Shown here in pieces: positions 49,021 to 64,000 of a DNA stretch of 64,000 bases. This DNA is from a virus, in IMG/VR virus record IMGVR_UViG_3300026484_000095, positions 45,820 to 109,819 of that record, one strand, 5' to 3'. A program made the position numbers and the translations under genes. The notes beneath the pieces are model-generated. The model worked only from the letters and a program-made list of their open reading frames with translations, ran no database searches and was not told the origin of the DNA. Every line of letters starts with the position of its first letter. The stretch's first letter is position 1.

Positions 49021-49362
49021 ATGGGTATTATAGGAATGAAAAAGAGCAATCAAGTTGACTCAATGATGAGAATTACAGCAGGTGTTCAAACTGCTTCTAG
49101 TCAAGTGTCAAAAGAGCTATCTCTTGGGAGAGTAAGACAACACGGTGGGCAAGTTTTTAGAAATCAAGATGGATACTCAATTAAAGGTATACCTTCTTTA
49201 TCTTCACAAGCTATGCTGGATATGATTAAAAGAGATAACGGTAGTGTTCAAGTGAAATACAAAGATGAGATATTGGATAATGACCAAATCTCTAAAACAG
49301 AAGAACCATTATGGGTTTTAGATAGAAATGGTGATACATTCAATCTAAAACGAAATTTTTAA
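49021..49362 (+). CDS. Hypothetical protein, possibly head-associated
   Basis: Starts MGIIG; contains RITA and VQTA. Confidence 0.55.
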   Translation: MGIIGMKKSNQVDSMMRITAGVQTASSQVSKELSLGRVRQHGGQVFRNQDGYSIKGIPSLSSQAMLDMIKRDNGSVQVKYKDEILDNDQISKTEEPLWVLDRNGDTFNLKRNF

Positions 49363-51109: not shown

Positions 51110-52660
51110 ATGAAGAAAGAAGCTTTTGTAGAACGAGCCAATAAAATTCATAATGGATTATATAAATATGACAATTTACCTCAAATTGTAAAAGTAAAAA
51201 ATAAATATGATATATTATGTCATTCTTGTAATTCCTTATTTAATCAACAACTACAGTCCCACTTGGCTGGTAGAGGCTGCCCTAATTGTAGAGGGGGGAT
51301 AAAACTACCCTTACAATTCTATATAGATAAATGCAGGGAAAATAATAAAGACTATTCCAAAATTGCTTTTAAAGATAATGGTATTGAAGCTAAGTGTAAT
51401 AAATGTGGCAACTTGATATTCAAGAAAAATAAAAATCATATCTATACTAAGGGTTGTAAATTTTGTGCCAATATGAAAATGAAGCAATTTAAAACCAAGA
51501 CCTTAGAGGACCTATCAATACCAAAAGGAACTAAGTTACTAGATTATAAAGGTCATTCACAAAAAGCTGTCCTTTATTGTATAAAGCATAAATGCACCTA
51601 TGAGCAACTTCCTAGTTATATAGGTAAGAAACAAGGCTGTAAATATTGTAATTCCAAACTAAAAGATTTAGATTATTTTGAAAGTAGAGTTGATTTAGAT
51701 TTATGGGATACAACTGATTCAGTTTATAAAGGTGCTAAGTCTTACATAACTGTTAAATGTAAAAAGTGTAATCATATTCAGATTAAAGAAGCTGGTAGTT
51801 TAATGCAAAGAACTGCAGGGTGTTCTAAATGCTCTAACTCATTCAATTCTTCTAAAGAGCAGAAAGAGTTATCAGATTGGTTATCTTCTTATACAGATGT
51901 ACAATTAAGCTACAGACCTAAATGGATGAAAGGTAAGGAGCTAGATATTTACCTCCCTAAGTTTAATTTTGCTATAGAGTACAACGGAGTATACTGGCAT
52001 AGCTCTCATTTTAAGAGCAGAAATTATCATAAAAGAAAAACTGATTTATGCAATGCAAATAATGTAAATCTATTTCATATTTGGAGTGACCTTTGGTTCA
52101 AAAAGAAAAGTCTTATAAAATCTATGCTATTGAATAAATTGGGTATTACTCCTTTTGTAATAGGTGCTAGAAAGTGTAATATAAGGAAAGTAACTATGCA
52201 GGATTCATTTGATTTCTTAAACTTAAATCATCTCCAAGGTGGTAATAAAGGTAGCATAATCAGTTATGGTTTATTTTATGATAATGAACTATTATCTATA
52301 ATGACCTTTAGACATAGAAAGGATTGGGAGCTAGTTAAGTTTGCTACCAAGACCTATACATTAGTTCAAGGTGGTTTTTCCAAATTGTTAAAGTATTTCA
52401 TAAAAGAACATTCTTGCAAAACCTTATACTCCTTTATAGATAGGTCTTGGTCTTTAGGTAATGTTTATTATAGAAATGGTTTCAAGACTATAAAAACCAT
52501 ACGACCTGATTATGTTTATATTAGTCCTAATAAAATAAATAGATTTCATAAGTCTATTTTAAGACAGGAAGAAAAGAATAGACAACTAAATTCTTATTTA
52601 AAAATCTATAATTCAGGTTTAATAAAAGTTATATGGAGGGACTCCTATGGCTTTAGTTGA
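51110..52660 (+). CDS. Hef-like homing endonuclease
   Basis: Multiple CxxC repeats; ELDIYLP..AIEYNGVYWHS, NHLQG, GGFSKLL. Confidence 0.8.
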   Translation: MKKEAFVERANKIHNGLYKYDNLPQIVKVKNKYDILCHSCNSLFNQQLQSHLAGRGCPNCRGGIKLPLQFYIDKCRENNKDYSKIAFKDNGIEAKCNKCGNLIFKKNKNHIYTKGCKFCANMKMKQFKTKTLEDLSIPKGTKLLDYKGHSQKAVLYCIKHKCTYEQLPSYIGKKQGCKYCNSKLKDLDYFESRVDLDLWDTTDSVYKGAKSYITVKCKKCNHIQIKEAGSLMQRTAGCSKCSNSFNSSKEQKELSDWLSSYTDVQLSYRPKWMKGKELDIYLPKFNFAIEYNGVYWHSSHFKSRNYHKRKTDLCNANNVNLFHIWSDLWFKKKSLIKSMLLNKLGITPFVIGARKCNIRKVTMQDSFDFLNLNHLQGGNKGSIISYGLFYDNELLSIMTFRHRKDWELVKFATKTYTLVQGGFSKLLKYFIKEHSCKTLYSFIDRSWSLGNVYYRNGFKTIKTIRPDYVYISPNKINRFHKSILRQEEKNRQLNSYLKIYNSGLIKVIWRDSYGFS

Positions 52661-54485
52661 TTATTTAAGACAATTAACGAAACAAATCGAAAGTGAAGCT
52701 CGTTTCAAACCACTAACAATCTTGGAATTTGCTACAAGTTCTAGTGGTTTAAATCTTAAACTGTTCCCTGCACAGATATTCATCTTCAAGGTATTCTACG
52801 GTATCCCATTGTCTAATAGTAAAGCAGAAAATAAGATAACTATCAAAGATAATTTCAATGAGCATATATTGTATGAGTTCAGCGAGGTAGAATTTTTTGA
52901 ATTTCTTTACCAAGAGGGTAGAATTAATTTATCTCCAACTGAATGGCAAGAGATGGTGGAGCTTGAAGAGACCATAGATGAGATAGTCTTTATTATAGGT
53001 CGTAGGGGTTCTAAAACAACAATGACTTCAATCATTTCAGCTTATACAGTATATCTATTGTTATTGATGGAAGACCCTCATAGTTTCTTTGGTGTAGCTC
53101 ATTCAGAGCCTATAGGTATCGCTTTATGTTCTAATAGTTCAGAGGGTGCAGAAAGACAGCTTAGAAATCTTATCCAATTAATGCACCCATCTAAATTCTT
53201 CATTCCTTATGTTTATGGGACTAAAGGTGGTAAGTATTGGCTAAGAACACCTATGTTTAAAGAGAGAGAAGAGATAGGTGCAACTACATCGCCGGGTGAT
53301 ATTTTGATAGAAGCTTACGCCGCTAGTCCATCTGTTAGAGGTGCAAGTAATATCGTTGTGGTAATGGACGAGTATGGACACTTCAATGATGCAGATGTAA
53401 GTAATAAAAAGAAACCCTTAGATATTAAATTATATGAAGCATTAACTCCATCAGTTGCAGGTTTCTCAGATGAAGACGGAAAGGCTTATGGTAAATCGTT
53501 TGTTATGAGTTCACCTAATGGTAAAAAAGGTGAACTGTATAAAATGTATAAAGATGGTAGATTAAACAAAGATACATATCTAGTATTGAATATGCCATCG
53601 CACTGGGTTAATAACAGTATCGCTTCAAAAAGGCTTAGAAATGCTTACAATAAATCGGAGCTATCTTATAGACAAGAGTACTTAGGGGAGTTCGTTGATA
53701 ATATCAATGGTTGGATAAGTAACCCTAATAAAGTTCGTGCTATGGTTAATAAGCTATGGACTAATAATATAGATAATGGTGTAAGAGCTAAGAAGTATTA
53801 TTTAGGAATTGACTTGGCAATGAGTGGAGATGGGTTCGCTTTATGTATCGCTCATAAAGAGTTAAAAAGACCAATGGGTGAATATGAAGAACCTGAGTTC
53901 GAGCTTTCTTTACATCAAGGCGAGTGTTATGTAATTGATTATATGGAATGTCATACACCTGAATTAGGAGAGGTATTAGAACACGAGTTCATAATCGATA
54001 GAATTAAATATATGTATTCTAAATTTAGTATAGTTAAAGGTGTATATGACCAATGGGCAGGTCAGGTATTTACCCAATTATTCGCTAAGGCGAAAATTCC
54101 TAGATTGGAGATGAAACCTTCTACACAAGCTGTTAATAGTGAGACTGCTAAACAGTTTAGACAGCTTTTAATGGAGGGTAAAATAATGGCACCTGATTAT
54201 GAGCCTTTAGTTACAGAGCTTTTAAATTTACAAGAAACAACTGGTAGAAATGGTTATGTAAAAGTAGAAGCATTATCAGGGGGACACGATGACTTGTTTG
54301 ATGCTGTTAGCAGAGCTGTATACCTATCTTTTGAGTATGGTGATATTAACCCTTATACAGTTGGTATAGAGAATGGTAAAAAACCCAAATTATCTGGGAA
54401 ATCTAAGGAAGAGTTACTCAAGATGAAGAAGTTGTTATTAAAAAGAAACAAAGAAACAGTTTATGGTGGAGCAATAACTAGATAA
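52647..54485 (+). CDS. terL: Terminase large subunit
   Basis: GRRGSKT, VVVMDEYGH, SSPNG, QEYLGEF, LGIDLA, HDDLFDA. Confidence 0.92.
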   Translation: MALVDYLRQLTKQIESEARFKPLTILEFATSSSGLNLKLFPAQIFIFKVFYGIPLSNSKAENKITIKDNFNEHILYEFSEVEFFEFLYQEGRINLSPTEWQEMVELEETIDEIVFIIGRRGSKTTMTSIISAYTVYLLLLMEDPHSFFGVAHSEPIGIALCSNSSEGAERQLRNLIQLMHPSKFFIPYVYGTKGGKYWLRTPMFKEREEIGATTSPGDILIEAYAASPSVRGASNIVVVMDEYGHFNDADVSNKKKPLDIKLYEALTPSVAGFSDEDGKAYGKSFVMSSPNGKKGELYKMYKDGRLNKDTYLVLNMPSHWVNNSIASKRLRNAYNKSELSYRQEYLGEFVDNINGWISNPNKVRAMVNKLWTNNIDNGVRAKKYYLGIDLAMSGDGFALCIAHKELKRPMGEYEEPEFELSLHQGECYVIDYMECHTPELGEVLEHEFIIDRIKYMYSKFSIVKGVYDQWAGQVFTQLFAKAKIPRLEMKPSTQAVNSETAKQFRQLLMEGKIMAPDYEPLVTELLNLQETTGRNGYVKVEALSGGHDDLFDAVSRAVYLSFEYGDINPYTVGIENGKKPKLSGKSKEELLKMKKLLLKRNKETVYGGAITR

Positions 54486-54498
54486 GGAGCAAGTAATA

Positions 54499-56496
54499 AT
54501 GATAAGAGTAAAAAAGAATAATGTAGCCAATTCAACTATGGCTATCAACAAGATGAGAGCAACAGCAGGTGACCAAAATGCACAAAGATTTCTTAATGTA
54601 GTGGGTAGCACTTCTTCTTTAAGAACACAAGCATTTGGTAAATCAACTATTGCTCATTCATTTTCAAGTTTAAAAAATTCAATAGATGATATGACTGTTA
54701 CAGATGATTATATGTATGTAAGAGCAGAACTATTGATTGAGTTGTTAGCTAATGGTAGCTTAATAATTAGTAGGCTAACTTTGGAACAGAAGATAATCCT
54801 ATTCTCATATTTTTATAAATACGATAAAAAGATGGGTAGAATTATTGACCTATTCGTTGAGCTACCTTTATCTTCTATGCGATTACAAAAACCTGCAAAT
54901 GCTACAAATGATATATTACAAGATTATATTTTTGACTTCTTTAAAAGAATGTGGGATAGTAAAGATTTTAAGAATAAACTAAAAGGGTTATTCTTAAATA
55001 CTAAGTTATTCGGTGTCGGTGCTATTCTAATATCAGATGATTATAATTTAGATAGCGATACTATCTTAGATTTTAACAATCTTGATTCCATAGTTCAAGA
55101 CGAAGTAGAGGAAGAAGAGTGGGAGTTCATAAAAGAAACTACATCTTTGTATAATGATAAACCTAATGAAGTTCCTTATAAAGATAAAAGCAAGGTTATA
55201 TCTAAACTTATAAAATCTATTAACAAAGATTACAAGGGTGTAAAATTTACTAAAATAATAGACCCGTTTATCGTAGCTAAAAGATTGTCAAATTTAGATA
55301 TTGATTATCACTCATATTCTTTAAAACCTAATGCTAATATATCAAAATTTCTAACTTCCCCTATGGCTAAGGGTAAAAACACAGATGAAATAGTAACTAT
55401 GTTGGCTAATCTAGGGTATTCAAAAAGTTATGTAAAATTGTTTGTTGATAGTAAAATCTCTAATGTAACTATTGATAGTAATCCTTTTTATAACAACGGT
55501 TGTTACATTATAGCTATGGAGGGTTCAGGTTTAAGTATAAACGATAAATCATCTTTTAATAGGGTTCTACAATCTGCTATTGATTTGAAAGTGATTAGAG
55601 ATAGAGAACGATTTAAAGCACAACAAGCCTATAAGGTTAATAGAATAGTATCTGTTGCAGATGGTTCTATCGGAACTGAGGAGATGGATAGTTTAGAAGC
55701 TAAAATTATATCATCTGTTAGTAACCCAGAGGGTACTCTTTTAGTAACAAATTATGATGTTCAATGGCAAGAGTTCTCAATGGACGCAAGGGAACAAGTT
55801 GAGTTAAGTGGTTATGAAGAGAAAGCAGAGAGAGATATTTACTCTTCATTCGGTATGCCTGATGCTCTTATTGGTGGGGATGACAGTTATGCAAATTCCT
55901 TTATGAAAATGGAGATGATGACTAATGAGTTCCAATCAACAAGGATGCAACTTAAACAGTTCGTAGAAGATAAATTGTTTAAACCTATTGCTATTAAAAA
56001 AGGGTTCGTTATTACAGATGACTGGGGTAACCCGAGTGTAGTATTCCCTAGTTTGAAATTCGATAGAATAACTATTGCTAGAGGCACAGAAGATTTTAGT
56101 CTATTACAAGATTTAGCTATGAGTAATAAGATACCTTGGAAAACATTGATTGAAGCATTGAATTTTGATTTTGAGGAAGTTCAATCTGAACTTAAAAGAG
56201 AAAAACTATCTATGGTTAATGATAATATGGGTGCAGTTATTGATAATGCACTAGGGGAAATGTCAGATAAGCTATTGGAGAGTGAAGACTTTACTAAGAA
56301 AGTGGCAGATGTATTAGGAATTAAAGAAGTGGAGGAGATAGCAGATGAGCCTAAAGATGAGGGAGAAGAAGAGACCCCTAACGAGAATAATGAAGAAACA
56401 TCAAGCAATGAAGACGAAGTTGAAGCTGAGAATGAAAATGAGTCAAATCCAATCCAAACTAAAGAGTCTGTTGAAGTAGAGGAGGAAGAGAACTAA
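54499..56496 (+). CDS. Portal protein
   Basis: 665 aa directly after TerL; FGMPDALIGG..SYA; acidic tail. Confidence 0.75.
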   Translation: MIRVKKNNVANSTMAINKMRATAGDQNAQRFLNVVGSTSSLRTQAFGKSTIAHSFSSLKNSIDDMTVTDDYMYVRAELLIELLANGSLIISRLTLEQKIILFSYFYKYDKKMGRIIDLFVELPLSSMRLQKPANATNDILQDYIFDFFKRMWDSKDFKNKLKGLFLNTKLFGVGAILISDDYNLDSDTILDFNNLDSIVQDEVEEEEWEFIKETTSLYNDKPNEVPYKDKSKVISKLIKSINKDYKGVKFTKIIDPFIVAKRLSNLDIDYHSYSLKPNANISKFLTSPMAKGKNTDEIVTMLANLGYSKSYVKLFVDSKISNVTIDSNPFYNNGCYIIAMEGSGLSINDKSSFNRVLQSAIDLKVIRDRERFKAQQAYKVNRIVSVADGSIGTEEMDSLEAKIISSVSNPEGTLLVTNYDVQWQEFSMDAREQVELSGYEEKAERDIYSSFGMPDALIGGDDSYANSFMKMEMMTNEFQSTRMQLKQFVEDKLFKPIAIKKGFVITDDWGNPSVVFPSLKFDRITIARGTEDFSLLQDLAMSNKIPWKTLIEALNFDFEEVQSELKREKLSMVNDNMGAVIDNALGEMSDKLLESEDFTKKVADVLGIKEVEEIADEPKDEGEEETPNENNEETSSNEDEVEAENENESNPIQTKESVEVEEEEN

Positions 56497-56538
56497 GTTT
56501 AGTTCTTTTAAGTAAAAATTTTAAATAAGGAATTAAGA

Positions 56539-57192
56539 ATGAGAATCATAGCTGAAATAACTAAGGATTTTTTAAACAGAAATCTAAATCTCCCTGAGGA
56601 AGAGATATATAAAACCCCCGCTGTAAATGGTGGTAAAAAATTCCTAACTGTAATCCGTAGGGGGGATAGTCCTGCAAATTATTATTACTTTTCACAAAGA
56701 CTAGGCATAAATAGTATACGGTTTATTTTATATGATAAAAGCAGACCTAAACCTTTTTGTTTGTTAGAGCAGTTAGAAGCTAGTCATAATAAACTAAAGA
56801 TAGGTGCTTATAGTGGGAGCTTAGATAAGAAAGGTTATACACCTTTACAGGTATGTAGAGAAGAGGTAAACGAAGAAAGTATGTTCAACATTGAAGAAGA
56901 TGATATTGGTCGTATTACCTTAGTATCCGTTCGTAGTGTAGGCTCACAATCCAACGAAAATGCTTATCTCTATTTAGTAGATGTAGAGGGGTTACCTGAA
57001 GTAGGAACTAATCCTGAAAATGAGTGGGAAGAGAATACAAACCACCATTGGCTAAGTCTTGAAGAGGTTAAAACAAAAGGTGACTGGGCTTCTTACATTA
57101 TAGCTGATAGTGTAAGAGTTCTAAATACAGATAAAACACAAAACGGTCAGATTATTGCAAGTGAGGGTTTAAATAGTAGGAGGAGAAGCTAA
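56539..57192 (+). CDS. Nudix hydrolase with MRIIA leader
   Basis: Nudix-box-like GSLDKKGYTPLQVCREEVNEES. Confidence 0.75.
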   Translation: MRIIAEITKDFLNRNLNLPEEEIYKTPAVNGGKKFLTVIRRGDSPANYYYFSQRLGINSIRFILYDKSRPKPFCLLEQLEASHNKLKIGAYSGSLDKKGYTPLQVCREEVNEESMFNIEEDDIGRITLVSVRSVGSQSNENAYLYLVDVEGLPEVGTNPENEWEENTNHHWLSLEEVKTKGDWASYIIADSVRVLNTDKTQNGQIIASEGLNSRRRS

Positions 57193-57752
57193 TGAGAATA
57201 ATTGCAAGTAACAATAAGTTAACTGTATATCACGGAGATGATTTCAACACATCTAAGATAGATTATAGATATATGAACAATGGGAACAACGAGCTAGGCA
57301 TTGGTATATATTTTGGCAATCTACAAACTGCACAAGCTTATGGGAAAGATATAGTATCTACAGAAATTGACCCTAAGAAATTTGTAGAAGCTAGGGGTTA
57401 TGCCTCAGACTATATTAAGACTTCTGTTTTAGCTAAGTTCTTGAAAGAGTTACATAAGTTGGATAATGAACCGTTATATTATTATATAACAGATTTTGGG
57501 GTAGAGGCTAATGAACCTGAGGATATTGAAGATTATATGTTAGAAGAACTAGCAGAGAATATAATCGACGAAGAGATTAGAAATCTGCAAATAGATTTAG
57601 CACAAAAGTTTGACCATCATCTAAAAGAGTTCGTTCATCTTTGGAACAAGATTATCAAAATAGATGGGACTAAGATGGATAGAGGTGGTGTAATAGGACA
57701 CTGGTTCTGTATCATAAATCCCAAATATAAATTAACTAAGGTAAAGGTTTAA
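57192..57752 (+). CDS. ADP-ribosyltransferase-like protein (H-Y clade) with MRIIA leader
   Basis: LTVYHG...LGIGIYF...AQAYG; C-terminal IDG...CIINP. Confidence 0.6.
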   Translation: MRIIASNNKLTVYHGDDFNTSKIDYRYMNNGNNELGIGIYFGNLQTAQAYGKDIVSTEIDPKKFVEARGYASDYIKTSVLAKFLKELHKLDNEPLYYYITDFGVEANEPEDIEDYMLEELAENIIDEEIRNLQIDLAQKFDHHLKEFVHLWNKIIKIDGTKMDRGGVIGHWFCIINPKYKLTKVKV

Positions 57753-57754
57753 TT

Positions 57755-58150
57755 ATGAAAATTATCGCAATGGCAGTAAAAGCTGAATATAATCCTGATA
57801 GAAAAAGCTACATAAGGTATCATAGAACCAAGGGTCTATTTAATAAGAGAGCAATGAAACTTATTAAAAGAAATAGGAAAAATCATAAAAGAACTCCTCT
57901 ACAAAAGTTATGTAACGGTAAATTAGATGATAGCTGTATAATGAGAGCTATGAAATCAAACAACCCACATCTAAGAAAGTCTGCTAATTTTGTTCAAACT
58001 ATGAGAAAAATTGCAGGTCGTAGAGTTGGCAAGAAAGATAAATACAATATGTCAAAACGAAAAAAGAAAGACAAAATGTATAATCTACAACATAGACAAG
58101 ATTTAAGAAGAGTTGAGAGATGGAGAAAACTTGGAGGTAGAAAGAGATGA
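57755..58150 (+). CDS. Highly basic protein with MKIIA leader
   Basis: K/R-rich 131 aa. Confidence 0.65.
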   Translation: MKIIAMAVKAEYNPDRKSYIRYHRTKGLFNKRAMKLIKRNRKNHKRTPLQKLCNGKLDDSCIMRAMKSNNPHLRKSANFVQTMRKIAGRRVGKKDKYNMSKRKKKDKMYNLQHRQDLRRVERWRKLGGRKR

Positions 58151-58554
58151 GGATTATAGCAAATATCAAAGAAGATATAAACCCTAGATTGTTTTCTAAG
58201 GCTTTAACAGATGGTCAAAAAGAGGACAAGGGTGTTATTGGTATAGATTTTGACGGTGTTATTCATAGATATTCTAAGGGTTGGCAAGATGGCTCTATCT
58301 ATGATAAACCCATCGAGGGAACAGATAAAGCTCTAACAGAACTGCTTGATAAAGGTTATAAGCTTTTTATCTTTACAGCTAGACCTCTAAAAGGTATTAG
58401 AGAGTGGTTAAAATCTAATTTTGAAGATGAGAGAATACATAACATAAACCTAACAAATAAAAAGCTCCCTGCTCAATTATATATAGACGATAGAGGTTAT
58501 CGTTTCAAAGGTTGGGGTGGTGCAATGAACTTTGTAGAAAAAGGTTTAGTATGA
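58147..58554 (+). CDS. HAD-superfamily phosphatase/nucleotidase with MRIIA leader
   Basis: IGIDFDGVI, IFTAR, KLPA..YIDDR. Confidence 0.85.
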   Translation: MRIIANIKEDINPRLFSKALTDGQKEDKGVIGIDFDGVIHRYSKGWQDGSIYDKPIEGTDKALTELLDKGYKLFIFTARPLKGIREWLKSNFEDERIHNINLTNKKLPAQLYIDDRGYRFKGWGGAMNFVEKGLV

Positions 58555-58895
58555 AAATTATAGCTATTAGAGTAAGTCCTATTATAAACATCACAAAAGA
58601 TATAATAGGGCGACGCAAATCTCAAAAAGAGGTAATAGAAGAGATAGAAGCTCTGTCTAAGAGATACCCTCGTAATAGCTTATTTAAAGGGCTTAGAAGA
58701 GAATACGGAGAAAGAGAGGTAAGGGATTTTGAGGAAGTATTGAAAAAAGTGAAAAAGCAATATGAACGAAATCTATTTATGAAGTCTATCTATTCTCAAA
58801 TTAAAGAAAACACTCCTTTGGGTATCTACCAAAGAAATCAATTAGGTAATAACTCTCCCATCTTTTCTATATATGCTGAAAAGAAAAACAGTTAA
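58551..58895 (+). CDS. Hypothetical protein with MKIIA leader
   Basis: Start placed at the ATGA overlap at 58551 rather than the TTG at 58512. Confidence 0.65.
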   Translation: MKIIAIRVSPIINITKDIIGRRKSQKEVIEEIEALSKRYPRNSLFKGLRREYGEREVRDFEEVLKKVKKQYERNLFMKSIYSQIKENTPLGIYQRNQLGNNSPIFSIYAEKKNS

Positions 58896-58932
58896 GTTTT
58901 GACTTAATTGTTTAAAAATAGGAGAAATAAAA

Positions 58933-60063
58933 ATGAGTATAATTGCATTTGATAAGAATACTGTTGATAACAGTAAAGCTCATAAAAAAGATGTTAGTAA
59001 GGTCAGAGCACCTAATCTAGCTACAAGAAACAAAAAAAGAACTTCGAGAACAAGTATCAAAGCCCCAAGTATTCCTAATAAAATCAAAACCCCTACATTA
59101 CCATCTGTCGGTTTATCTGACCCCAATGAAGATGTTGGTAGTATTTTAAGACCAACAGAAATCGACCCTAAGGATAAGATGAAAAAGGTTAAGTGTGACC
59201 AATTTAATTGTTACATTAATGAAGATGGAACAGAAGCCCACATTAGACACAACTCTAATCCTAGTTTAACAAAGATAGATGATAATGGAGAAACTGTTGA
59301 AGTGCTATTCAATAGTAATGATTGGGTGTTTTCTCAAACAACTGCTGTTGCAAGTGTCGATATTATAGAGGGGTTTAGAATTAAACCTGAAACAGCTAAG
59401 TTCGTTAATAACAACGGAAATGCTTTTAGTGATAGAATCGTTCAAAAGTATTATAAAACATTTATCGGTGCACACAATTATAAAAATCATCTACAAGACC
59501 CTGCACAAAGTTATGGTATCATTCTTGATGCAGTATTGAGAGAAGTACCTATCCCTGAAACAGAAACATCTATTTTCTACATAGACTGTTTAATAGCTAC
59601 AAATAGACATAAAGACGATAAATGGGCTAAGGCTATTGAAAATGGTGTCGTTAAATTTGTTAGTATGGGTGCAGAGAGTTCTAGTTTTAGATGTACTAAT
59701 TGTGGTAACATTGCTACAAGGGTTCAGGATTTTTGTGACCATTTTAAATATCATAAAGGTAAGTATTATATAGACTCAAAGGGTAGAAAGCTTAGAATAG
59801 CTCATTTAGTAGAGGACTATAAGAATGCACAAGGTCAAGGTTATGTTGAGTTTATAGAGTTAAGCTATTTAGATATTAACCCCGCTTTTCAAGGTGCATC
59901 TCAAGCTCATATACTACGAGTTCCTACAAACACTGATGTAGCGATGAATCTTCCTATTGGCTATCTAAGTAAAAGTGCATTTAGAACTTGGGTTGATTCT
60001 TATAAAATCAAAAAAGAGGGTCAAGAGGTAGATTATAATACCCTTATAGATAAGGTATTATAA
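58933..60063 (+). CDS. Putative prohead protease with MSIIA leader
   Basis: NGNAF, NH...GIILDA, VSMG..CTNCG..CDH, FIELS..PAF; lies after the portal. Confidence 0.7.
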   Translation: MSIIAFDKNTVDNSKAHKKDVSKVRAPNLATRNKKRTSRTSIKAPSIPNKIKTPTLPSVGLSDPNEDVGSILRPTEIDPKDKMKKVKCDQFNCYINEDGTEAHIRHNSNPSLTKIDDNGETVEVLFNSNDWVFSQTTAVASVDIIEGFRIKPETAKFVNNNGNAFSDRIVQKYYKTFIGAHNYKNHLQDPAQSYGIILDAVLREVPIPETETSIFYIDCLIATNRHKDDKWAKAIENGVVKFVSMGAESSSFRCTNCGNIATRVQDFCDHFKYHKGKYYIDSKGRKLRIAHLVEDYKNAQGQGYVEFIELSYLDINPAFQGASQAHILRVPTNTDVAMNLPIGYLSKSAFRTWVDSYKIKKEGQEVDYNTLIDKVL

Positions 60064-60078
60064 TAAAAGAGGGTTACA

Positions 60079-61326
60079 ATGAACAGAGGTAATGAAACTC
60101 AAAAGAGAAATTCTTTAGAGAAATTTATGAAGTGGGTTGAAGATAATTCAGACTACACTTCAAATTTTGTATATCATTATGATACTTATATTAATGCTAC
60201 AAAGGGTTTAGAAGTAACTTGTTTAAAACATAATGAGAAATTTAGAAATAGTTTAGCTAGACTAAAAGAGGGTAGAAGCTGTAAAAGATGTTACTACGAA
60301 AAGTTATCTAAAGCCCAATTTAATAACCGTTCTTACAGTATAGAGGAATTGGAAAAAAGATTCCCTACTATATCTTTTGATGAAGCTGAATACATTAATG
60401 CAGTAACTCCTATGAAGCTTTACTGTAAAATACATAAAGAGTATTTTTATAAAGATTATGACCATCTTATAAGGGGTCAGGGCTGTAAAAAGTGTTCAAA
60501 TAAAGGGGTATCTAAGGCTGAGAAAGACTTAGCAGAATGGATAAATTATTATACTCCTATTATAGAGAATTATAAACCTAAATGGTTACAAGGTATGGAG
60601 TTAGATATATTCATACCTGAATTTAATCTAGCGATTGAATATAACGGTCTTTATTGGCATAGTGAAGATTTTTTAGATAAGAATTATCATAAAAGAAAGA
60701 CTGATTTATGTAATGCAAATAATGTAAATCTATTTCATATTTGGGAAGATGAACTTCGAGATAAGACTGATATAATTTTATCAATGTTATTACATAAAAT
60801 GAAATTAACTCCTTTTACCATAGGTGCTAGAGAATGTACTGTAAAAGTTGTTCCTCTTAAAGAAGCTAATGAGTTTTTAGAGAATAATCACTTATTAGGT
60901 GGAAATAGGGCTGTTACCATAAAAGGTCTTTATTATGATAATGAGCTATTGAGTGTTATGACTATGCGAAAAGATGGTGATTATTATAACCTAACAAAGT
61001 TTGCTAACAAAACTTATACAAATGTTCAAGGTGGATTTAGTAAGCTATTAAAGTCTTTTGAGTTAGACCGACCTATAATCTCTTATGCAGAAGATAGATG
61101 GAGTTTGGGTAACTTATATTCTCAAAATGGGTTTAACTTCTCCCATAAATCTCCTCCTAATTATTTTTATGTAAAAGATGGAATTTCTTATAATAAAAAA
61201 TTATTCACTAAGAAGAGATTAAAGAAGCTATATAATTGTAAGGTAGATAATGAGAGGGACTTTATGTATATGCAAGGGTATAGAAGAGTTTATGAGAGTG
61301 GACTCTCTTGTTATATAAAGGATTGA
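60079..61326 (+). CDS. Hef-like homing endonuclease, paralogue of 51110
   Basis: ELDIFIP..AIEYNGLYWHS, NHLLG, GGFSKLL. Confidence 0.8.
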   Translation: MNRGNETQKRNSLEKFMKWVEDNSDYTSNFVYHYDTYINATKGLEVTCLKHNEKFRNSLARLKEGRSCKRCYYEKLSKAQFNNRSYSIEELEKRFPTISFDEAEYINAVTPMKLYCKIHKEYFYKDYDHLIRGQGCKKCSNKGVSKAEKDLAEWINYYTPIIENYKPKWLQGMELDIFIPEFNLAIEYNGLYWHSEDFLDKNYHKRKTDLCNANNVNLFHIWEDELRDKTDIILSMLLHKMKLTPFTIGARECTVKVVPLKEANEFLENNHLLGGNRAVTIKGLYYDNELLSVMTMRKDGDYYNLTKFANKTYTNVQGGFSKLLKSFELDRPIISYAEDRWSLGNLYSQNGFNFSHKSPPNYFYVKDGISYNKKLFTKKRLKKLYNCKVDNERDFMYMQGYRRVYESGLSCYIKD

Positions 61327-61327
61327 T

Positions 61328-62080
61328 ATGTCAGATATTTTAGATAAGATAAAAAATTATGATGATAATGAAAAACCTCATTTCCCCCCAATCGGCGATT
61401 GGCACGGAATCAATGCTACAGCATTTTTCGGCTTCGATAAACTAAAACAATTATATCTTAGTAGTAAAGATGGTATATTGGAGTATGAAAAGAAATACCG
61501 TAAGAAAGCTAAGGGGATGGGTCTAGGTCTGAACTATGGGGGTACTTATAAGGTTCTTCAATCTATTCTAGGAGGTTCAGAAGCAGAAAGTATCAAATTG
61601 TTTTCTAACTATTTCAAACATCTTAAATACTTTAAAGCTCACTTAGATAAGCTAGTAAAAGAAGCTAATAAGGTGTTATATGTTAAAACATTCTTAGGTC
61701 GTAGATTATACCTACCCTCATTAGGAAGTGAAAATTGGCGAGAGAAAGCTAAGGGTCGTAATAAGATATATAACTCTCCTATCCAAGCATTTGGTGCCGA
61801 GACAATTAAACTTATTTTAAATGCTGTCGGTAACTGGGTAGAGAGTAATGATTTAAGTCAACTGCATAATAACAATATATGTAAGAATTATTATCAAAGA
61901 ATTGTATCAATCGACATCAAAGAATGTGATGAGTTCTTAGAGTCATATTTGGAAACAATACCTAATGGCAATGTTAAGCTATTGGTAAAAGATGGTAACA
62001 AGGTAGTTAAAGAGTTCGACAGAAATCTAAAATTATCTATGAGAGATATAAACAATTTTAATATGAACTTGGAGTGGTAA
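61328..62080 (+). CDS. Family A DNA polymerase fragment (fingers/motif B)
   Basis: DWH..A, RKKAKGMGLGLNYG, TFLGRR, NSPIQ..AE..K. Confidence 0.85.
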   Translation: MSDILDKIKNYDDNEKPHFPPIGDWHGINATAFFGFDKLKQLYLSSKDGILEYEKKYRKKAKGMGLGLNYGGTYKVLQSILGGSEAESIKLFSNYFKHLKYFKAHLDKLVKEANKVLYVKTFLGRRLYLPSLGSENWREKAKGRNKIYNSPIQAFGAETIKLILNAVGNWVESNDLSQLHNNNICKNYYQRIVSIDIKECDEFLESYLETIPNGNVKLLVKDGNKVVKEFDRNLKLSMRDINNFNMNLEW

Positions 62081-62081
62081 T

Positions 62082-62639
62082 ATGGGTTTCAAGAGGTCTA
62101 AATATAAAACTGTTGATGATTATAAAAAATCAGTTCAGCAAGATATGGTAGTGTTAGTTAATACAGTCCACGATGAGATAGATTATTTGATAGATGGTAA
62201 ATTGTTAAAACCTATTCTGAAAAAAGTGTCAAATATTTCTACATTGAAAAAGACTATTAATAAGTTAGGGCTACCATATCTCAACTTCTTATTTGATATA
62301 GAGTTCGATAAGTATAATAGTTGGACTTCAAAAGAAGCTCTAAATGTTTATGAGGTTGCAGGTTCTAAGTATGAGCTAGAAGCAATGAATAAACTTAAAT
62401 CTATAAAGGGGAGGGATAGTGATGATAGGTTGTTAGATTCAGATAATTCGGGTAACTCTGATGAAGATACAATAGAAGAGGTTATCATAGACGGTGGGTT
62501 TGAAAAGCTTGATGAGTTAATTAACGCAATTCAAAATTCCGTAGATAAGGGCGAAGTTCGTTTCGGTATCGAAGTGGACGGGGAAGTGATGTATTATAAA
62601 AATCTAGTTAGCAAAAAAGTAATAACTAAGTTTTTGTAA
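62082..62639 (+). CDS. Family A DNA polymerase fragment (motif C)
   Basis: LVNTVHDEI; own GGAG RBS and ATG. Confidence 0.75.
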   Translation: MGFKRSKYKTVDDYKKSVQQDMVVLVNTVHDEIDYLIDGKLLKPILKKVSNISTLKKTINKLGLPYLNFLFDIEFDKYNSWTSKEALNVYEVAGSKYELEAMNKLKSIKGRDSDDRLLDSDNSGNSDEDTIEEVIIDGGFEKLDELINAIQNSVDKGEVRFGIEVDGEVMYYKNLVSKKVITKFL

Positions 62640-62721: not shown

Positions 62722-63987
62722 ATGGACAAAAATGTTCAAATTTTAGATACAATGTCTAGTCTATCTAACTCATTAGATGCGATAGCACAAAAGACTATTG
62801 CAGGTGAGTATGATGTTGACTCTTTACAAAGTAAGCTAGTATCAGTTGCTAATGCTTTGGAAACAACTGCTAATGCAGAGGGTTATATGTTGGGTCAAAT
62901 TTCTGACGCAGATTCATTTTTTACAATGGCTTCAACAACTGATTTTGATGATGCTTATTCAAAAGTTCTTGCCGTTTCTGCACAAGCTACTTTGGTAGGT
63001 CAAATGATACAAGGTGAGCTACAAAAACTTGGTGTAGTTGCTGATGATACAGAAGAAGAAGATAAAGGTGCAGAAGATTCGGATAAAACTGTCGAGGATT
63101 CAGTAGATGATGTTGAAGACTTTGATGAAGATGATACACCTATGGATTCTACTAGTGCTGATATTGAAGATTTAAGAAGTCAAGCAATGGAGTATTTAGA
63201 GGAGGGTCTTTTAACTGAAGCACAAGATACTTTAGAAATTATAGCTGAACTTCAAGCAGAGGCTAAAATTGGTGATGGCAAAGACAAATCAATCAATCAA
63301 AGATTAGATGATATAGCTAAATCGGCCGTTAGTCGAACTTTAAAGAAAACTGGAAATGGTGATAAAGCAAAAGGCGATAAAGCTGCCGCTAGAAAAGCAC
63401 TGGGTGATGCCAACTCAAAGACAGAACATCTTAGACAATACGATGGAGTAACTTCTGGTCGTAAAGGTGGTAATGTTAGAGTTGAAAAAAAGGAAAACGG
63501 TAAGGTAGGTTTAAGTGATGGGAGACCTTCTGCCTTAGGGAAAATGAAAGTCGGAATGAAAACAGGTAAAGCTAGTCCCCTTAACATTAACCATAAAGGT
63601 GGGATGGTAAAAAGTAATAAAGTTAACCGAAAACCTATAGGAGCAGCCCCCTCAGCAACTAAAATGGGAGCTAAAAGAGTAATGAGAACAAGAGCAGATG
63701 AGCTAAAAGCACAAGCTATGGAACTTCTAGCAGATGGATTCACTGTTGAGGCACAAGAGCTTATGACTATCGCTAAAAGATTGGGTGTAGGTAATACACA
63801 CGGGGAAATTAATCCACAAGTGAAAACCGTTGAAAAAGAGGGTGTTAATGATATTATCAACACAGGTAGTAAAGATACAAATCCACCTGCTGTAAAAACA
63901 ACAGCTTCAACAACTGAGGATGCAAGTGCTACTGCTCTAAGTTCAGAAGCAAGTACCCAACCAATGGTTAATTGGAATTTTAATTAA
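62722..63987 (+). CDS. Putative scaffold/head protein with an internal repeat
   Basis: Ala-rich, acidic and basic blocks; two QAME..EAQ repeats; lies after the protease. Confidence 0.5.
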   Translation: MDKNVQILDTMSSLSNSLDAIAQKTIAGEYDVDSLQSKLVSVANALETTANAEGYMLGQISDADSFFTMASTTDFDDAYSKVLAVSAQATLVGQMIQGELQKLGVVADDTEEEDKGAEDSDKTVEDSVDDVEDFDEDDTPMDSTSADIEDLRSQAMEYLEEGLLTEAQDTLEIIAELQAEAKIGDGKDKSINQRLDDIAKSAVSRTLKKTGNGDKAKGDKAAARKALGDANSKTEHLRQYDGVTSGRKGGNVRVEKKENGKVGLSDGRPSALGKMKVGMKTGKASPLNINHKGGMVKSNKVNRKPIGAAPSATKMGAKRVMRTRADELKAQAMELLADGFTVEAQELMTIAKRLGVGNTHGEINPQVKTVEKEGVNDIINTGSKDTNPPAVKTTASTTEDASATALSSEASTQPMVNWNFN

Positions 63988-64000
63988 AAAAAAAAAGGAT

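What the first reader, a model, noticed from the sequence alone, without database searches (positions are those of the whole stretch)
56539..60063. Six consecutive head-module genes share an N-terminal M-[RKS]-I-I-A tag: candidate capsid-targeting/propeptide system
Seen: ORFs at 56539 (MRIIAE), 57192 (MRIIAS), 57755 (MKIIAM), 58147 (MRIIAN), 58551 (MKIIAI) and 58933 (MSIIAF) are unrelated proteins sharing only this pentapeptide. The codons differ (atg aga atc ata gct / aga ata att gca / aaa att atc gca / agg att ata gca / aaa att ata gct / agt ata att gca), so conservation is at peptide level. The genes start right after the portal and end with the prohead protease. No replication gene has the tag; the nearest variants are MGIIG (49021) and MKIIK (4290). 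Known: T4 internal proteins share a short N-terminal capsid-targeting sequence removed by the gp21 protease. Inference: this is an analogous, much shorter packaging tag or cleavage site (after I-I-A) that loads diverse enzymes into the head for injection.
Basis: partly seen in the sequence, partly recalled or inferred. Interest (0 to 1): 0.9.

Follow-up and report, generated by a model that had tools for sequence, protein, structure and literature searches.

The report
Five-residue head-loading tag on phage proteins
An uncultured ~110-140 kb phage puts the same five amino acids (M-K/R-I-I-A) at the start of its head-maturation protease and of seven unrelated small proteins. Comparison with relatives suggests this is a very short address label that loads proteins into the virus head, like the 10-residue capsid-targeting sequence of phage T4, but packaging has not been shown.

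Summary
Six consecutive genes between the portal and scaffold genes start M-[R/K/S]-I-I-A, and two more do elsewhere in the 109.8-kb contig: 8 of ~160 genes, against about 0.01 expected. Conservation is at peptide level: wobble bases vary and it stops at codon 6.

The tag is kept in relatives and changes as a set. G000 has 8 IIA-type and 0 IF-type starts; another lineage (G001) has 0 and 13. In each lineage the gp21-like prohead protease carries the local version.

The tag is modular:
- It is lost when a cargo domain lies inside a fusion protein.
- It is separated from the domain by indels.
- It is absent from more than 100 outside homologues of the HAD-like cargo.
- It is disordered in AlphaFold models.

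The strongest result concerns the ADP-ribosyltransferase cargo (ART-PolyVal family). In T4-like phages the same family carries a T4-type capsid-targeting sequence (e.g. MKTYKEFLEE) in arrays beside gp21/gp22/gp23-type genes. The two leaders are swapped on one cargo.

Best reading (~0.6): an N-terminal procapsid-targeting tag, a new, much shorter variant of the T4 CTS idea. Packaging, the receptor and any cleavage after I-I-A remain untested.

This scan has noted similar shared tags, with other sequences, in other uncultured phages.

The parts
52647..54485 (+). Large terminase (context: start of the head/packaging operon)
   Evidence: PHROG phrog_2 E 1.9e-23 and Pfam TerL_nuclease; 80% identical orthologue in L001
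54499..56496 (+). Portal protein; untagged (starts MIRVKK)
   Evidence: tblastn match to the annotated portal of Tunturiibacter phage Tunturi_5, E 4e-20; conserved position after TerL in all relatives
56539..57192 (+). Tagged cargo 1 (MRIIAE), 217 aa, weakly Nudix-like; tag codons 56539-56553
   Evidence: Pfam NUDIX E 0.0029, below cut-off. Family of 120 representatives; distant members start MKIVS/MRFVN/MKLLS/MRLFS followed by a variable linker. In L006 the domain is internal to a 423-aa protein and has no tag
57192..57752 (+). Tagged cargo 2 (MRIIAS), 186 aa, ADP-ribosyltransferase fold (ART-PolyVal family); tag codons 57192-57206
   Evidence: 24 of 38 family members match PF18760 ART-PolyVal. 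AF2 pLDDT 91, with residues 1-6 below 50. Fold matches AcrIF11 (6kyf, Foldseek E 2.5e-4), a cyanophage A4 pre-ejectosome chain (Z 7.2), PARPs and diphtheria toxin. Homologues in T4-like phages carry a T4-type CTS instead
57755..58150 (+). Tagged cargo 3 (MKIIAM), 131 aa, very basic (pI 11.5, 34% K+R); tag codons 57755-57769
   Evidence: In L006 it is fused N-terminally to the ART domain as one 477-aa protein with a single tag
58147..58554 (+). Tagged cargo 4 (MRIIAN), 135 aa, HAD-like phosphatase; tag codons 58147-58161
   Evidence: phrog_1238 E 3.8e-19 over residues 25-126. A 14-aa insertion lies directly after MRIIA relative to the orthologues. More than 110 outside homologues start 3-6 residues before the IAIDFDG strand and have no leader
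58551..58895 (+). Tagged cargo 5 (MKIIAI), 114 aa, basic (pI 10.0), function unknown; tag codons 58551-58565
   Evidence: no family, PDB or Atlas match
58933..60063 (+). Tagged prohead protease (MSIIAF), 376 aa: tag (58933-58947), disordered basic/Pro-rich N-terminal region of about 105 aa, then a gp21/assemblin-fold domain (residues ~121-376)
   Evidence: phrog_18299 head maturation protease. Homologues in Tunturi_5, Bacillus phage G gp19 and Mycobacterium phage Catera gp94 align only from residue ~107. AF2 shows residues 1-107 below pLDDT 50. Best structural match is T4 gp21 (5jbl, Z 8.4, rmsd 3.0 A, 128 residues), followed by about 35 herpesvirus proteases
62722..63987 (+). Scaffold-like acidic protein, untagged; candidate docking partner (inferred only). 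The contig ends 13 bp later, before the 152-aa protein and the major capsid protein that relatives have
   Evidence: Homologous to L002:15678-16502 and L006:13296-14180, which are followed there by a 152-aa protein and a 307-aa capsid protein

Best explanation
M-[K/R]-I-I-A is a minimal N-terminal procapsid-targeting (cargo-loading) leader.

Proposed mechanism:
1. The tagged proteins are encoded mostly inside the head operon, between portal and scaffold, and are made with an exposed, disordered N-terminal pentapeptide: a basic residue, two bulky hydrophobic residues, then a small residue.
2. During procapsid assembly this peptide docks onto a multi-copy internal component, most likely the scaffold core or the inner face of the shell. 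The receptor is unknown.
3. The gp21-like maturation protease and a changing set of small, mostly basic cargo proteins (an ADP-ribosyltransferase, a HAD-like phosphatase, a Nudix-like protein, a highly basic protein and others) are thereby enclosed.
4. After maturation the cargo stays in the head and is presumably ejected with the DNA to act early in the next host.

Shown here: the tag exists, is selected as peptide, is modular and N-terminal, co-varies genome-wide with the protease's own N-terminus, and replaces a T4-type CTS on the same cargo family.

Inferred: docking, encapsidation, ejection, and whether the tag is cut off.
For: 1. Non-random, peptide-level motif. 8 of ~160 genes carry it against 0.013 expected. 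Codon positions 1-2 of residues 3-5 are invariant in 20 tagged genes of three genomes, wobble positions carry 1-1.5 bits, and conservation ends at codon 6.

2. Conserved in relatives on a changing gene set.
- L001/L002 have seven consecutive MRI[IV]A/MNIIA genes after the portal.
- The complete 118-kb genome G007 has about 10.
- Non-homologous tagged genes occupy the same slots in G000 and G007.

3. Lineage-wide co-variation that includes the protease.
- G000: 8 IIA-type, 0 IF-type starts. G001: 0 IIA-type, 13 IF-type starts, with protease MFAFG.
- G006/L003: protease MKIFSN plus MKIFSS, MKLFTS and MKLFSR.
- L017: protease MKFFT, next gene MKIFS.
- L005 and Tunturi_5: the protease has no tag and no tagged neighbours were seen.
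- Distant protease homologues start MKFFS, MKLFS, MRFFS or MGIIYS.

4. Modularity.
- In L006 fusion proteins the internal ART and Nudix-like domains lack the tag; the basic+ART fusion keeps a single tag at its N-terminus, while the Nudix-containing fusion (MVKVKRR) has none.
- A 14-aa indel lies right after the tag in the HAD gene.
- Outside HAD homologues have no leader.
- The tag is disordered in AF2 models.

5. Leader swap. About 30 homologues of the ART cargo start MKTFKEYITE, MKTYKEFLEE, MKSFSEYLNE and similar, directly before the same first strand. These leaders resemble the T4 CTS MKTYQEFIAE and end in [L/I]-x-E. They are shared with unrelated neighbouring genes in loci that hold gp21-type protease, gp22-type scaffold, gp23-type capsid or gp20-type portal genes. 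Homology between the two ART types begins only after the leader.

6. T4 parallels, from the literature.
- The T4 prohead core holds gp21, gp22, gp67, gp68, Alt (an ART) and the basic internal proteins (IPs).
- The IPs co-purify with gp22.
- gp21 propeptides have been proposed to act like a CTS (PMC9026906).

7. Protein properties. Tagged proteins are more basic (median pI 9.25, 9.5 and 7.7 in G000, G007 and G001, against 6.2-6.7 for untagged; p 0.017) and poorer in cysteine (p 0.0002) than untagged ones.
Against: - There is no virion proteome, no cultured relative and no experiment; packaging is inferred throughout.
- The receptor is unidentified.
- The tag shows no sequence similarity to the T4 CTS, and no conserved gp21-type cleavage motif follows it.
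- Some cassette genes in relatives are untagged: L006 5482 and 8559. The latter is homologous to a tagged gene of L002.
- One tagged gene in G000 and one in G007 sit next to a UvrD helicase gene in the replication region.
- In a few proteases the motif is 2-4 residues from the annotated start (MKENKIIS, MEFKFFS, MIRIFT).
- The generalised pattern M-basic-hydrophobic-hydrophobic-small is common at bacterial N-termini, so single cases in distant lineages (L017, G006) weigh little on their own.
Confidence: 0.6

Rival explanations
1. The tag is a recognition or processing signal for the prohead protease, or for another phage enzyme. It would be a shared leader that is cut or modified, for example to activate the proteins. 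It would not address them to the capsid.
For: The protease is the one enzyme that co-occurs with the tag in every lineage, and it carries the tag itself. In T4 the CTS is also a gp21 substrate. Earlier notes of this scan show that a shared phage leader can belong to a modifying enzyme rather than to capsid sorting (e1-127136; not tested here).
Against: No conserved cleavage motif follows the tag. In the ART only 9 residues precede the fold. A gp21-type protease acts inside the procapsid, so being its substrate already implies encapsidation. The swap with a leader that in T4 is sufficient for targeting points to targeting.
Confidence: 0.12
2. The tag is an N-terminal degron read by a host AAA+ protease, for example a ClpX N-motif-2-like signal (Met-basic-hydrophobic-hydrophobic-hydrophobic). 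It would give the proteins a short, co-ordinated lifetime.
For: The pattern Met-basic-hydrophobic-hydrophobic fits my recollection of ClpX N-motif 2 (Flynn et al. 2003; own knowledge). That N-terminal ClpX degron classes exist is confirmed in PMC12723719. The tag is exposed and disordered.
Against: A host-read degron would not be expected to shift as a set between phage lineages (II to IF, and K to F at position 2). Nor would it be expected to mark the phage's own essential maturation protease. It also does not explain the exchange with a T4-type CTS on the ART. The host is unknown.
Confidence: 0.07
3. The tag docks the proteins onto some other shared partner unrelated to the capsid, such as a phage chaperone, a membrane or secretion site, or a condensate formed by the tags themselves.
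For: Some tagged genes lie outside the head module (genome 28148 next to UvrD; G007 19600). The receptor is unidentified.
Against: Most tagged genes lie between portal and scaffold or in the neck region. The protease of the procapsid carries the tag. The ART family is CTS-tagged in T4-like phages.
Confidence: 0.1
4. The conserved start is an RNA- or DNA-level feature: a translation-initiation enhancer, an operator for a translational repressor, or a recombination junction for swapping gene cassettes. Alternatively it is a compositional accident of an AT-rich genome.
For: AT-rich codons after AUG favour initiation (own knowledge). Four of the eight G000 tagged genes also share the SD context AAAGGTTTA. 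The genes in the tagged slots turn over quickly.
Against: Variation has a strict period of three, with variable wobble bases and an abrupt end at codon 6. The conserved fifth codon is GC-rich GCN. Upstream, only the SD is conserved. The most highly expressed head genes (portal, scaffold, capsid protein) lack the tag. The chance expectation is 0.013 per genome.
Confidence: 0.04

Closest known systems
[quoted passage not shown]
   Same: It is a short N-terminal leader shared by otherwise unrelated, mostly basic proteins. The phage has a gp21-fold prohead protease, and the genes cluster around portal, protease and scaffold. One cargo family (ART-PolyVal-type ADP-ribosyltransferase) carries a T4-type CTS in T4-like phages and the M-x-I-I-A tag here.
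   Different: The tag is 5 residues, not about 10, with no sequence similarity (no aromatic residues at positions 4 and 7). No [L/I]-x-E cleavage motif follows it, so it may not be removed. The protease itself carries the tag, whereas how T4 gp21 is targeted is unknown. The phage is not T4-like: its capsid protein is about 290-307 aa, related to that of Tunturi_5. Function is untested.
N-terminal packaging signal of phage P1 DarB
   Same: An N-terminal segment is sufficient to direct a heterologous protein into the capsid, and it belongs to an anti-defence cargo system (PMC9024508).
   Different: The DarB signal needs more than 9 and at most 30 residues, and it is not shared as a common motif by many unrelated proteins.
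Polyvalent proteins and MuF- or portal-fused effectors of phages (Iyer et al. 2017, PMC5512222)
   Same: Effector domains, including ARTs of the ART-PolyVal family, are encoded next to portal and head genes and are predicted to be packaged and injected. In relative L006 two cargo domains are fused into one tagged polypeptide.
   Different: Here the domains are mostly separate small proteins, each with its own pentapeptide, rather than being linked covalently to a MuF or portal domain. No MuF domain was found in the six proteins.
Propeptide-bearing head and ejection proteins of giant phages (phiKZ, SPN3US) processed by a gp21-like protease
   Same: Many head-internal proteins are matured by one prohead protease of the same fold class (abstracts of PMC7411985 and PMC10052503). 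The nearest homologues of the protease here are in large and jumbo phages.
   Different: Those propeptides are long and not a shared pentapeptide. The jumbo-phage homologues of this protease lack the tagged N-terminal extension.
Cargo-loading peptides of encapsulins (own knowledge, not tested here)
   Same: A short terminal peptide docks unrelated cargo enzymes to the inside of an HK97-fold shell.
   Different: They are usually C-terminal, belong to a cellular nanocompartment rather than a virus, and involve no protease.

Membership tests
T4-type capsid targeting sequence (CTS) system | A short N-terminal leader shared by otherwise unrelated proteins of one phage | tested here: met
   8 genes in G000, with no mutual BLAST similarity
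T4-type capsid targeting sequence (CTS) system | Leader resembles MKTYQEFIAE, with aromatic/hydrophobic residues at positions 4 and 7 | tested here: not met
   The tag is M-[K/R]-I-I-A and conservation ends at residue 5. The T4 CTS sequence comes and its key residues
T4-type capsid targeting sequence (CTS) system | Leader ends in the gp21 cleavage motif [L/I]-x-E and is removed | tested here: not met
   Only 56539 (I-A-E) and 58147 (I-K-E) have such a motif within 10 residues. The ART and the protease have none. Actual cleavage cannot be tested here
T4-type capsid targeting sequence (CTS) system | The phage encodes a gp21/assemblin-fold prohead protease next to the scaffold and capsid genes | tested here: met
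   Best structural match is T4 gp21 (5jbl, Z 8.4, rmsd 3.0 A, 128 aa), then herpesvirus proteases at Z 5.3-7.7; gene order
T4-type capsid targeting sequence (CTS) system | The leader is sufficient to target a protein into the prohead core | not testable with these tools
   Needs reporter fusions and virion or procapsid analysis
gp21/assemblin-type prohead serine protease (gene 58933) | Conserved catalytic His and Ser | tested here: inconclusive
   His186 and Ser244 are invariant in 18 homologues, but they were not mapped residue by residue onto the gp21 catalytic residues
ART-PolyVal ADP-ribosyltransferase, PF18760 (gene 57192) | Match to the Pfam model | tested here: inconclusive
   The window's copy gives no Pfam hit at E<=1, but 24 of 38 homologues (35-66% identical to it) match PF18760, best E 9.3e-6
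ART-PolyVal ADP-ribosyltransferase, PF18760 (gene 57192) | ART fold with the N-terminal His and the Tyr of the H-Y-E class | tested here: met
   All top-50 VIA structural matches have an ART fold or hold an ART-like part: PARPs, diphtheria and cholix toxins, AcrIF11 and a cyanophage A4 pre-ejectosome chain, Z 5.8-7.2. H14 and Y40 are invariant. The catalytic Glu was not identified
Polyvalent / MuF-fused packaged effectors | Effector covalently fused to a MuF or portal domain, or a multi-domain protein | tested here: not met
   No MuF or portal domain in the six proteins. Only relative L006 has two-domain fusions
ClpX N-motif-2 degron | N-terminal Met-basic-hydrophobic-hydrophobic-hydrophobic pattern, read by the host ClpX | not testable with these tools
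   The pattern fits 7 of 8 tags, but the host and its ClpX are unknown. The consensus is recalled from Flynn et al. 2003; the degron classes are confirmed

The most novel reading that the evidence does not exclude
A widespread uncultured phage clade uses a portable five-residue N-terminal address that is probably not cleaved. A component of the assembling procapsid reads it. The address loads the maturation protease itself and a fast-changing library of up to about 13 effector proteins. It drifts between lineages as a code (IIA, IFS, FFS, IFA/FIFG) and is functionally interchangeable with the T4 CTS. If so, injected effectors could be predicted from gene starts alone, and this would be the shortest known packaging tag.
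Probability: 0.45. Interest if true: 0.8.

Novelty: new variant of a known kind. Interest (0 to 1): 0.7.

Why it matters
If the tag is a loading signal, three things follow.

1. The T4 capsid-targeting idea extends to an unrelated, uncultured phage group, which suggests that address leaders are a general and repeatedly reinvented feature of large phages.
2. It gives a concrete answer, for this clade, to the open T4 question of how the prohead protease is brought into the core: by the same tag as the cargo.
3. Injected host-takeover or anti-defence proteins become predictable from sequence. Here they are an AcrIF11/PARP-like ADP-ribosyltransferase, a HAD-like phosphatase, a Nudix-like protein and basic DNA-binding-like proteins.

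A five-residue tag would also be a convenient tool for packaging foreign proteins into phage heads.

Tried and rejected
The long contigs holding the more distant protease homologues (P0010-P0016) could not be inspected. This limits the co-variation test to 6-8 lineages.
- **No cultured relatives.** blastn of the region and tblastn of the ART against cultured phages found nothing. The search for related loci with the protease alone also found nothing.
- **Complex prediction** (capsid protein + scaffold + 152-aa protein + tagged HAD cargo from L002, with small alignments) returned 'no answer', score 0.00. This is neither support nor evidence against binding.
- **PDB sequence searches** gave no meaningful hits for the protease profile or the ART, and only spurious designed-ankyrin hits for the Nudix-like protein.
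- **ESM Atlas** gave nothing usable for 58551.
- **The promoter/terminator scan** was uninformative: 58 promoter-like sites against 53 in shuffles.
- **Ideas rejected:**
  - Hidden paralogy of the tagged genes.
  - A DNA-level repeat or recombination junction.
  - The tag being part of the folds.
  - MGIIG at 49021 as a member: its G007 orthologue starts MKANIK.
  - The Nudix assignment as established: it is below the Pfam cut-off.
  - A universal cleavage site after I-I-A: no conserved following residue or Glu motif.

Full report
**1. The observation**

- They are tightly packed, with overlapping stop/start at three junctions, and each has an SD-like sequence upstream.
- The window is bases 45820-109819 of a single 109,819-bp contig of 32% G+C, with nearly all genes on one strand.
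- Two further genes of that contig start MKIIAG: genome 8161 (70 aa) and genome 28148 (169 aa).
- Position-specific residue frequencies of the untagged genes predict 8e-5 per gene, about 0.013 per genome, against 8 observed, six of them adjacent.
- The tagged proteins have no detectable similarity to each other.

**2. Peptide, not nucleic acid**

I compared 20 tagged genes from three genomes (G000, L002, L006).
- The first two bases of codons 3-5 are almost invariant (0-0.29 bits).
- Each wobble base carries 1-1.5 bits.
- All three positions of codon 6 are variable.
- Upstream, only the SD is conserved.

The selected unit is therefore the pentapeptide.

**3. What the genes are**

| Window position | Start | Assignment |
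|---|---|---|
| 52647 | – | large terminase |
| 54499 | MIRVKK | portal |
| 56539 | MRIIAE | weakly Nudix-like, below the Pfam cut-off |
| 57192 | MRIIAS | ADP-ribosyltransferase fold |
| 57755 | MKIIAM | extremely basic, pI 11.5 |
| 58147 | MRIIAN | HAD-like phosphatase |
| 58551 | MKIIAI | unknown |
| 58933 | MSIIAF | prohead protease |

- ART details: 24 of 38 family members match Pfam ART-PolyVal. The AlphaFold model has pLDDT 91. Structural matches are AcrIF11, a cyanophage A4 pre-ejectosome protein, PARPs and diphtheria toxin.
- Protease details: residues 121-376 fold like T4 gp21 (Z 8.4), with herpesvirus proteases next. Residues 1-107 are predicted disordered. That region is missing from the jumbo-phage homologues.
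- Downstream lie a homing endonuclease, two PolA fragments and a scaffold-like protein. The contig then ends before the 152-aa protein and capsid protein that relatives have.

**4. Relatives**

No cultured phage is close. Metagenomic relatives were found through the terminase, the protease profile and the ART profile.

| Lineage | Protease start | Other tagged genes |
|---|---|---|
| G000 (this contig) | MSIIAF | 7 × M[R/K]IIA |
| L001/L002 (terminase 80% identical) | MNIIAN | 6 × MRI[IV]A, partly different genes |
| G007 (complete, 118 kb, terminal repeats) | MKENKIISL | about 10 × M[K/R][I/V]I[A/S] |
| G006/L003 | MKIFSN | MKIFSS, MKLFTS, MKLFSR |
| L017 | MKFFT | adjacent gene MKIFS |
| G001 (62 kb) | MFAFGN | 12 × M[K/F][I/V]F |
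| L005 (28.7-kb fragment) | no tag | none seen |
| Tunturi_5 | no extension | none among neighbours |

- In G007 the tagged genes lie in the portal-protease block, after the capsid gene, in the neck region and upstream of the UvrD helicase gene.
- In G001, five of the twelve directly follow the protease and seven lie elsewhere (six at the other end of the contig, two further in).
- The counts are reciprocal: G000 has 8 IIA-type and 0 IF-type starts; G001 has 0 and 13.
- More distant protease homologues start MKFFS, MKLFS, MRFFS or MGIIYS.
- G000 and G007 have non-homologous tagged genes at the same two positions: between the homologues of genome 7751 and 8375, and upstream of the UvrD helicase gene.

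**5. Modularity**

- In L006 the basic protein and the ART are one 477-aa protein with a single N-terminal tag; the internal ART domain has none.
- The Nudix-like domain is the C-terminal half of an untagged 423-aa protein.
- The window's HAD gene has a 14-residue insertion directly after MRIIA relative to its orthologues.
- All six clade members of that family carry the leader. More than 110 outside homologues start 3-6 residues before the first strand.
- Distant members of the Nudix-like family carry MKIVS-, MRFVN-, MKLLS- or MRLFS-type starts, separated by linkers of varying length from the conserved first helix. Others have no such start.
- In both AlphaFold models the tag is disordered.

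**6. Leader swap (the strongest result)**

- The ART family has 38 members in the protein search. Those of the present clade start MRIIAS, MRIVAN, MEIIAG or MKIIAG, and in G001 MKIFAN.
- About 30 others start MKTFKEYITE, MKTFREWLRE, MKFRKFLNE, MTFRELIVE and similar, directly before the same [V/I]-[Y/F]-H-G-D strand.
- These leaders resemble the T4 capsid-targeting sequence MKTYQEFIAE (bioRxiv 10.1101/2021.01.19.427310) and end in the gp21 motif [L/I]-x-E.
- In the fetched loci the same leader heads several unrelated neighbouring genes: four in L019, four in L027.
- Those genes lie beside gp21-type protease, gp22-type scaffold and gp23-type capsid genes in L027, or a gp20-type portal in L019 and L044.
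- Homology between the two ART types starts only after the leader, at about residue 10 against residue 14-18.

One cargo family therefore carries a T4-type CTS in T4-like phages and the pentapeptide in this clade.

**7. Properties of the tagged proteins**

They are more basic than untagged ones in G000, G007 and G001 (median pI 9.25, 9.5 and 7.7 against 6.2-6.7; pooled p 0.017). They are also poorer in cysteine (p 0.0002). T4 internal proteins are likewise highly basic.

**8. Mechanism**

The best-supported reading is a procapsid-targeting leader. An exposed N-terminal strand-forming peptide docks on a multi-copy internal component of the assembling procapsid, bringing in the protease and the cargo. 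The cargo is later ejected into the next host.

The T4 literature gives the parallel:
- The core contains gp21, gp22, gp67, gp68, the ART Alt and the IPs.
- The IPs co-purify with gp22.
- The first 10 residues of IPIII suffice for targeting.
- gp21 propeptides have been suggested to act like a CTS (PMC9026906; PMC3012670).

Nothing about docking, packaging, ejection or cleavage is shown here. The absence of a conserved Glu motif, and the closeness of the tag to the ART fold, suggest the tag may stay on. This is an inference.

**9. Rivals**

- A processing- or modification-only leader.
- A host-protease degron of ClpX N-motif-2 type (plus own knowledge).
- Docking to a non-virion partner.
- An RNA- or DNA-level element.

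Each explains less. A host-read degron should not change as a set between phage lineages. An RNA element should not show period-three variation. A substrate of a gp21-type protease must be inside the procapsid anyway.

Caveats:
- Some cassette genes in relatives are untagged.
- One tagged gene per genome sits in the replication region.
- In a few proteases the motif is offset by 2-4 residues.
- The relaxed pattern is common at bacterial N-termini, so the two-gene cases weigh little.

**10. Comparison with what is known**

- It works like the T4 CTS but is not a member of that sequence family. Its length, sequence and cleavage motif differ, and the phage is not T4-like.
- It resembles the P1 DarB N-terminal signal in principle (PMC9024508).
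- It can be seen as an unlinked counterpart of polyvalent and MuF-fused effectors (PMC5512222).
- I found no description of this pentapeptide in the searched literature.
- Earlier notes of this scan report other shared N-terminal tags, with different sequences, in other uncultured large phages. The phenomenon appears recurrent.

**11. What did not work**

- The complex prediction gave no answer.
- Several database searches were empty.

**12. Verdict**

This is a new variant of a known kind; interest 0.7.

Noticed in passing
window 60079-62639; also L003:11720-13532, L008:11032-12329, L017:14261-15525, G001 (reverse-complement coordinates 55037-60071): Two family-A DNA polymerase fragments (250 and 185 aa) lie between the protease and scaffold genes. 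They are conserved at that position in every relative examined. In this window an HNH homing endonuclease (60079-61326) precedes them. Paralogous endonucleases sit at window 51110-52660 and at several sites in the relatives.
   Followed up: partly
window 63987-64000 (contig end); L002:16514-17907: The G000 contig stops 13 bp after the scaffold gene. It lacks the 152-aa protein and the 307-aa major capsid protein that follow in relatives. The protein database lists the same protease on a 139,849-bp contig, so the phage genome is probably about 140 kb and G000 is incomplete.
   Followed up: partly
L002:16514-16972, L006:14190-14648, L003:15039-15485, L017:16583-17032, L048:1174-1632 (-): A conserved ~150-aa Gly-rich protein of unknown function lies between scaffold and capsid protein in all lineages. 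It starts M(L)KILY, MLNILY or MLKLMY. This is tag-like, but it does not co-vary with the lineage's tag.
   Followed up: no
L006:7124-8557 and L006:5482-6753: Domain fusions in a relative. The basic protein and the ART form one 477-aa protein, in the opposite order to the two separate genes in the window. An unknown 226-aa N-terminal part and the Nudix-like domain form one 423-aa untagged protein.
   Followed up: partly
L019:895-5566, L027:9489-12034, L024/L026, L044: Uncultured T4-like phages carry arrays of unrelated small genes around the portal and gp21 genes. The genes share T4-type CTS leaders (MKTFREWLRE four times in L019; MKSF-E-[FY]-[LIM]-x-E four times in L027). One of them is the ART-PolyVal-type ADP-ribosyltransferase.
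   Followed up: partly
   Followed up: yes
window 62722-63987: The scaffold-like protein is 421 aa, against 274-294 aa in relatives. A central insertion of about 150 residues, rich in charged residues, lies between the conserved N- and C-terminal parts.
   Followed up: no
window 57192-57752 (model ma3907079896a): The best VIA structural match of the ART model is a chain of the cyanophage A4 pre-ejectosome (9k3a_B, Z 7.2, 151 residues aligned). That would be an ART-like domain in a solved, capsid-internal ejection protein.
   Followed up: no
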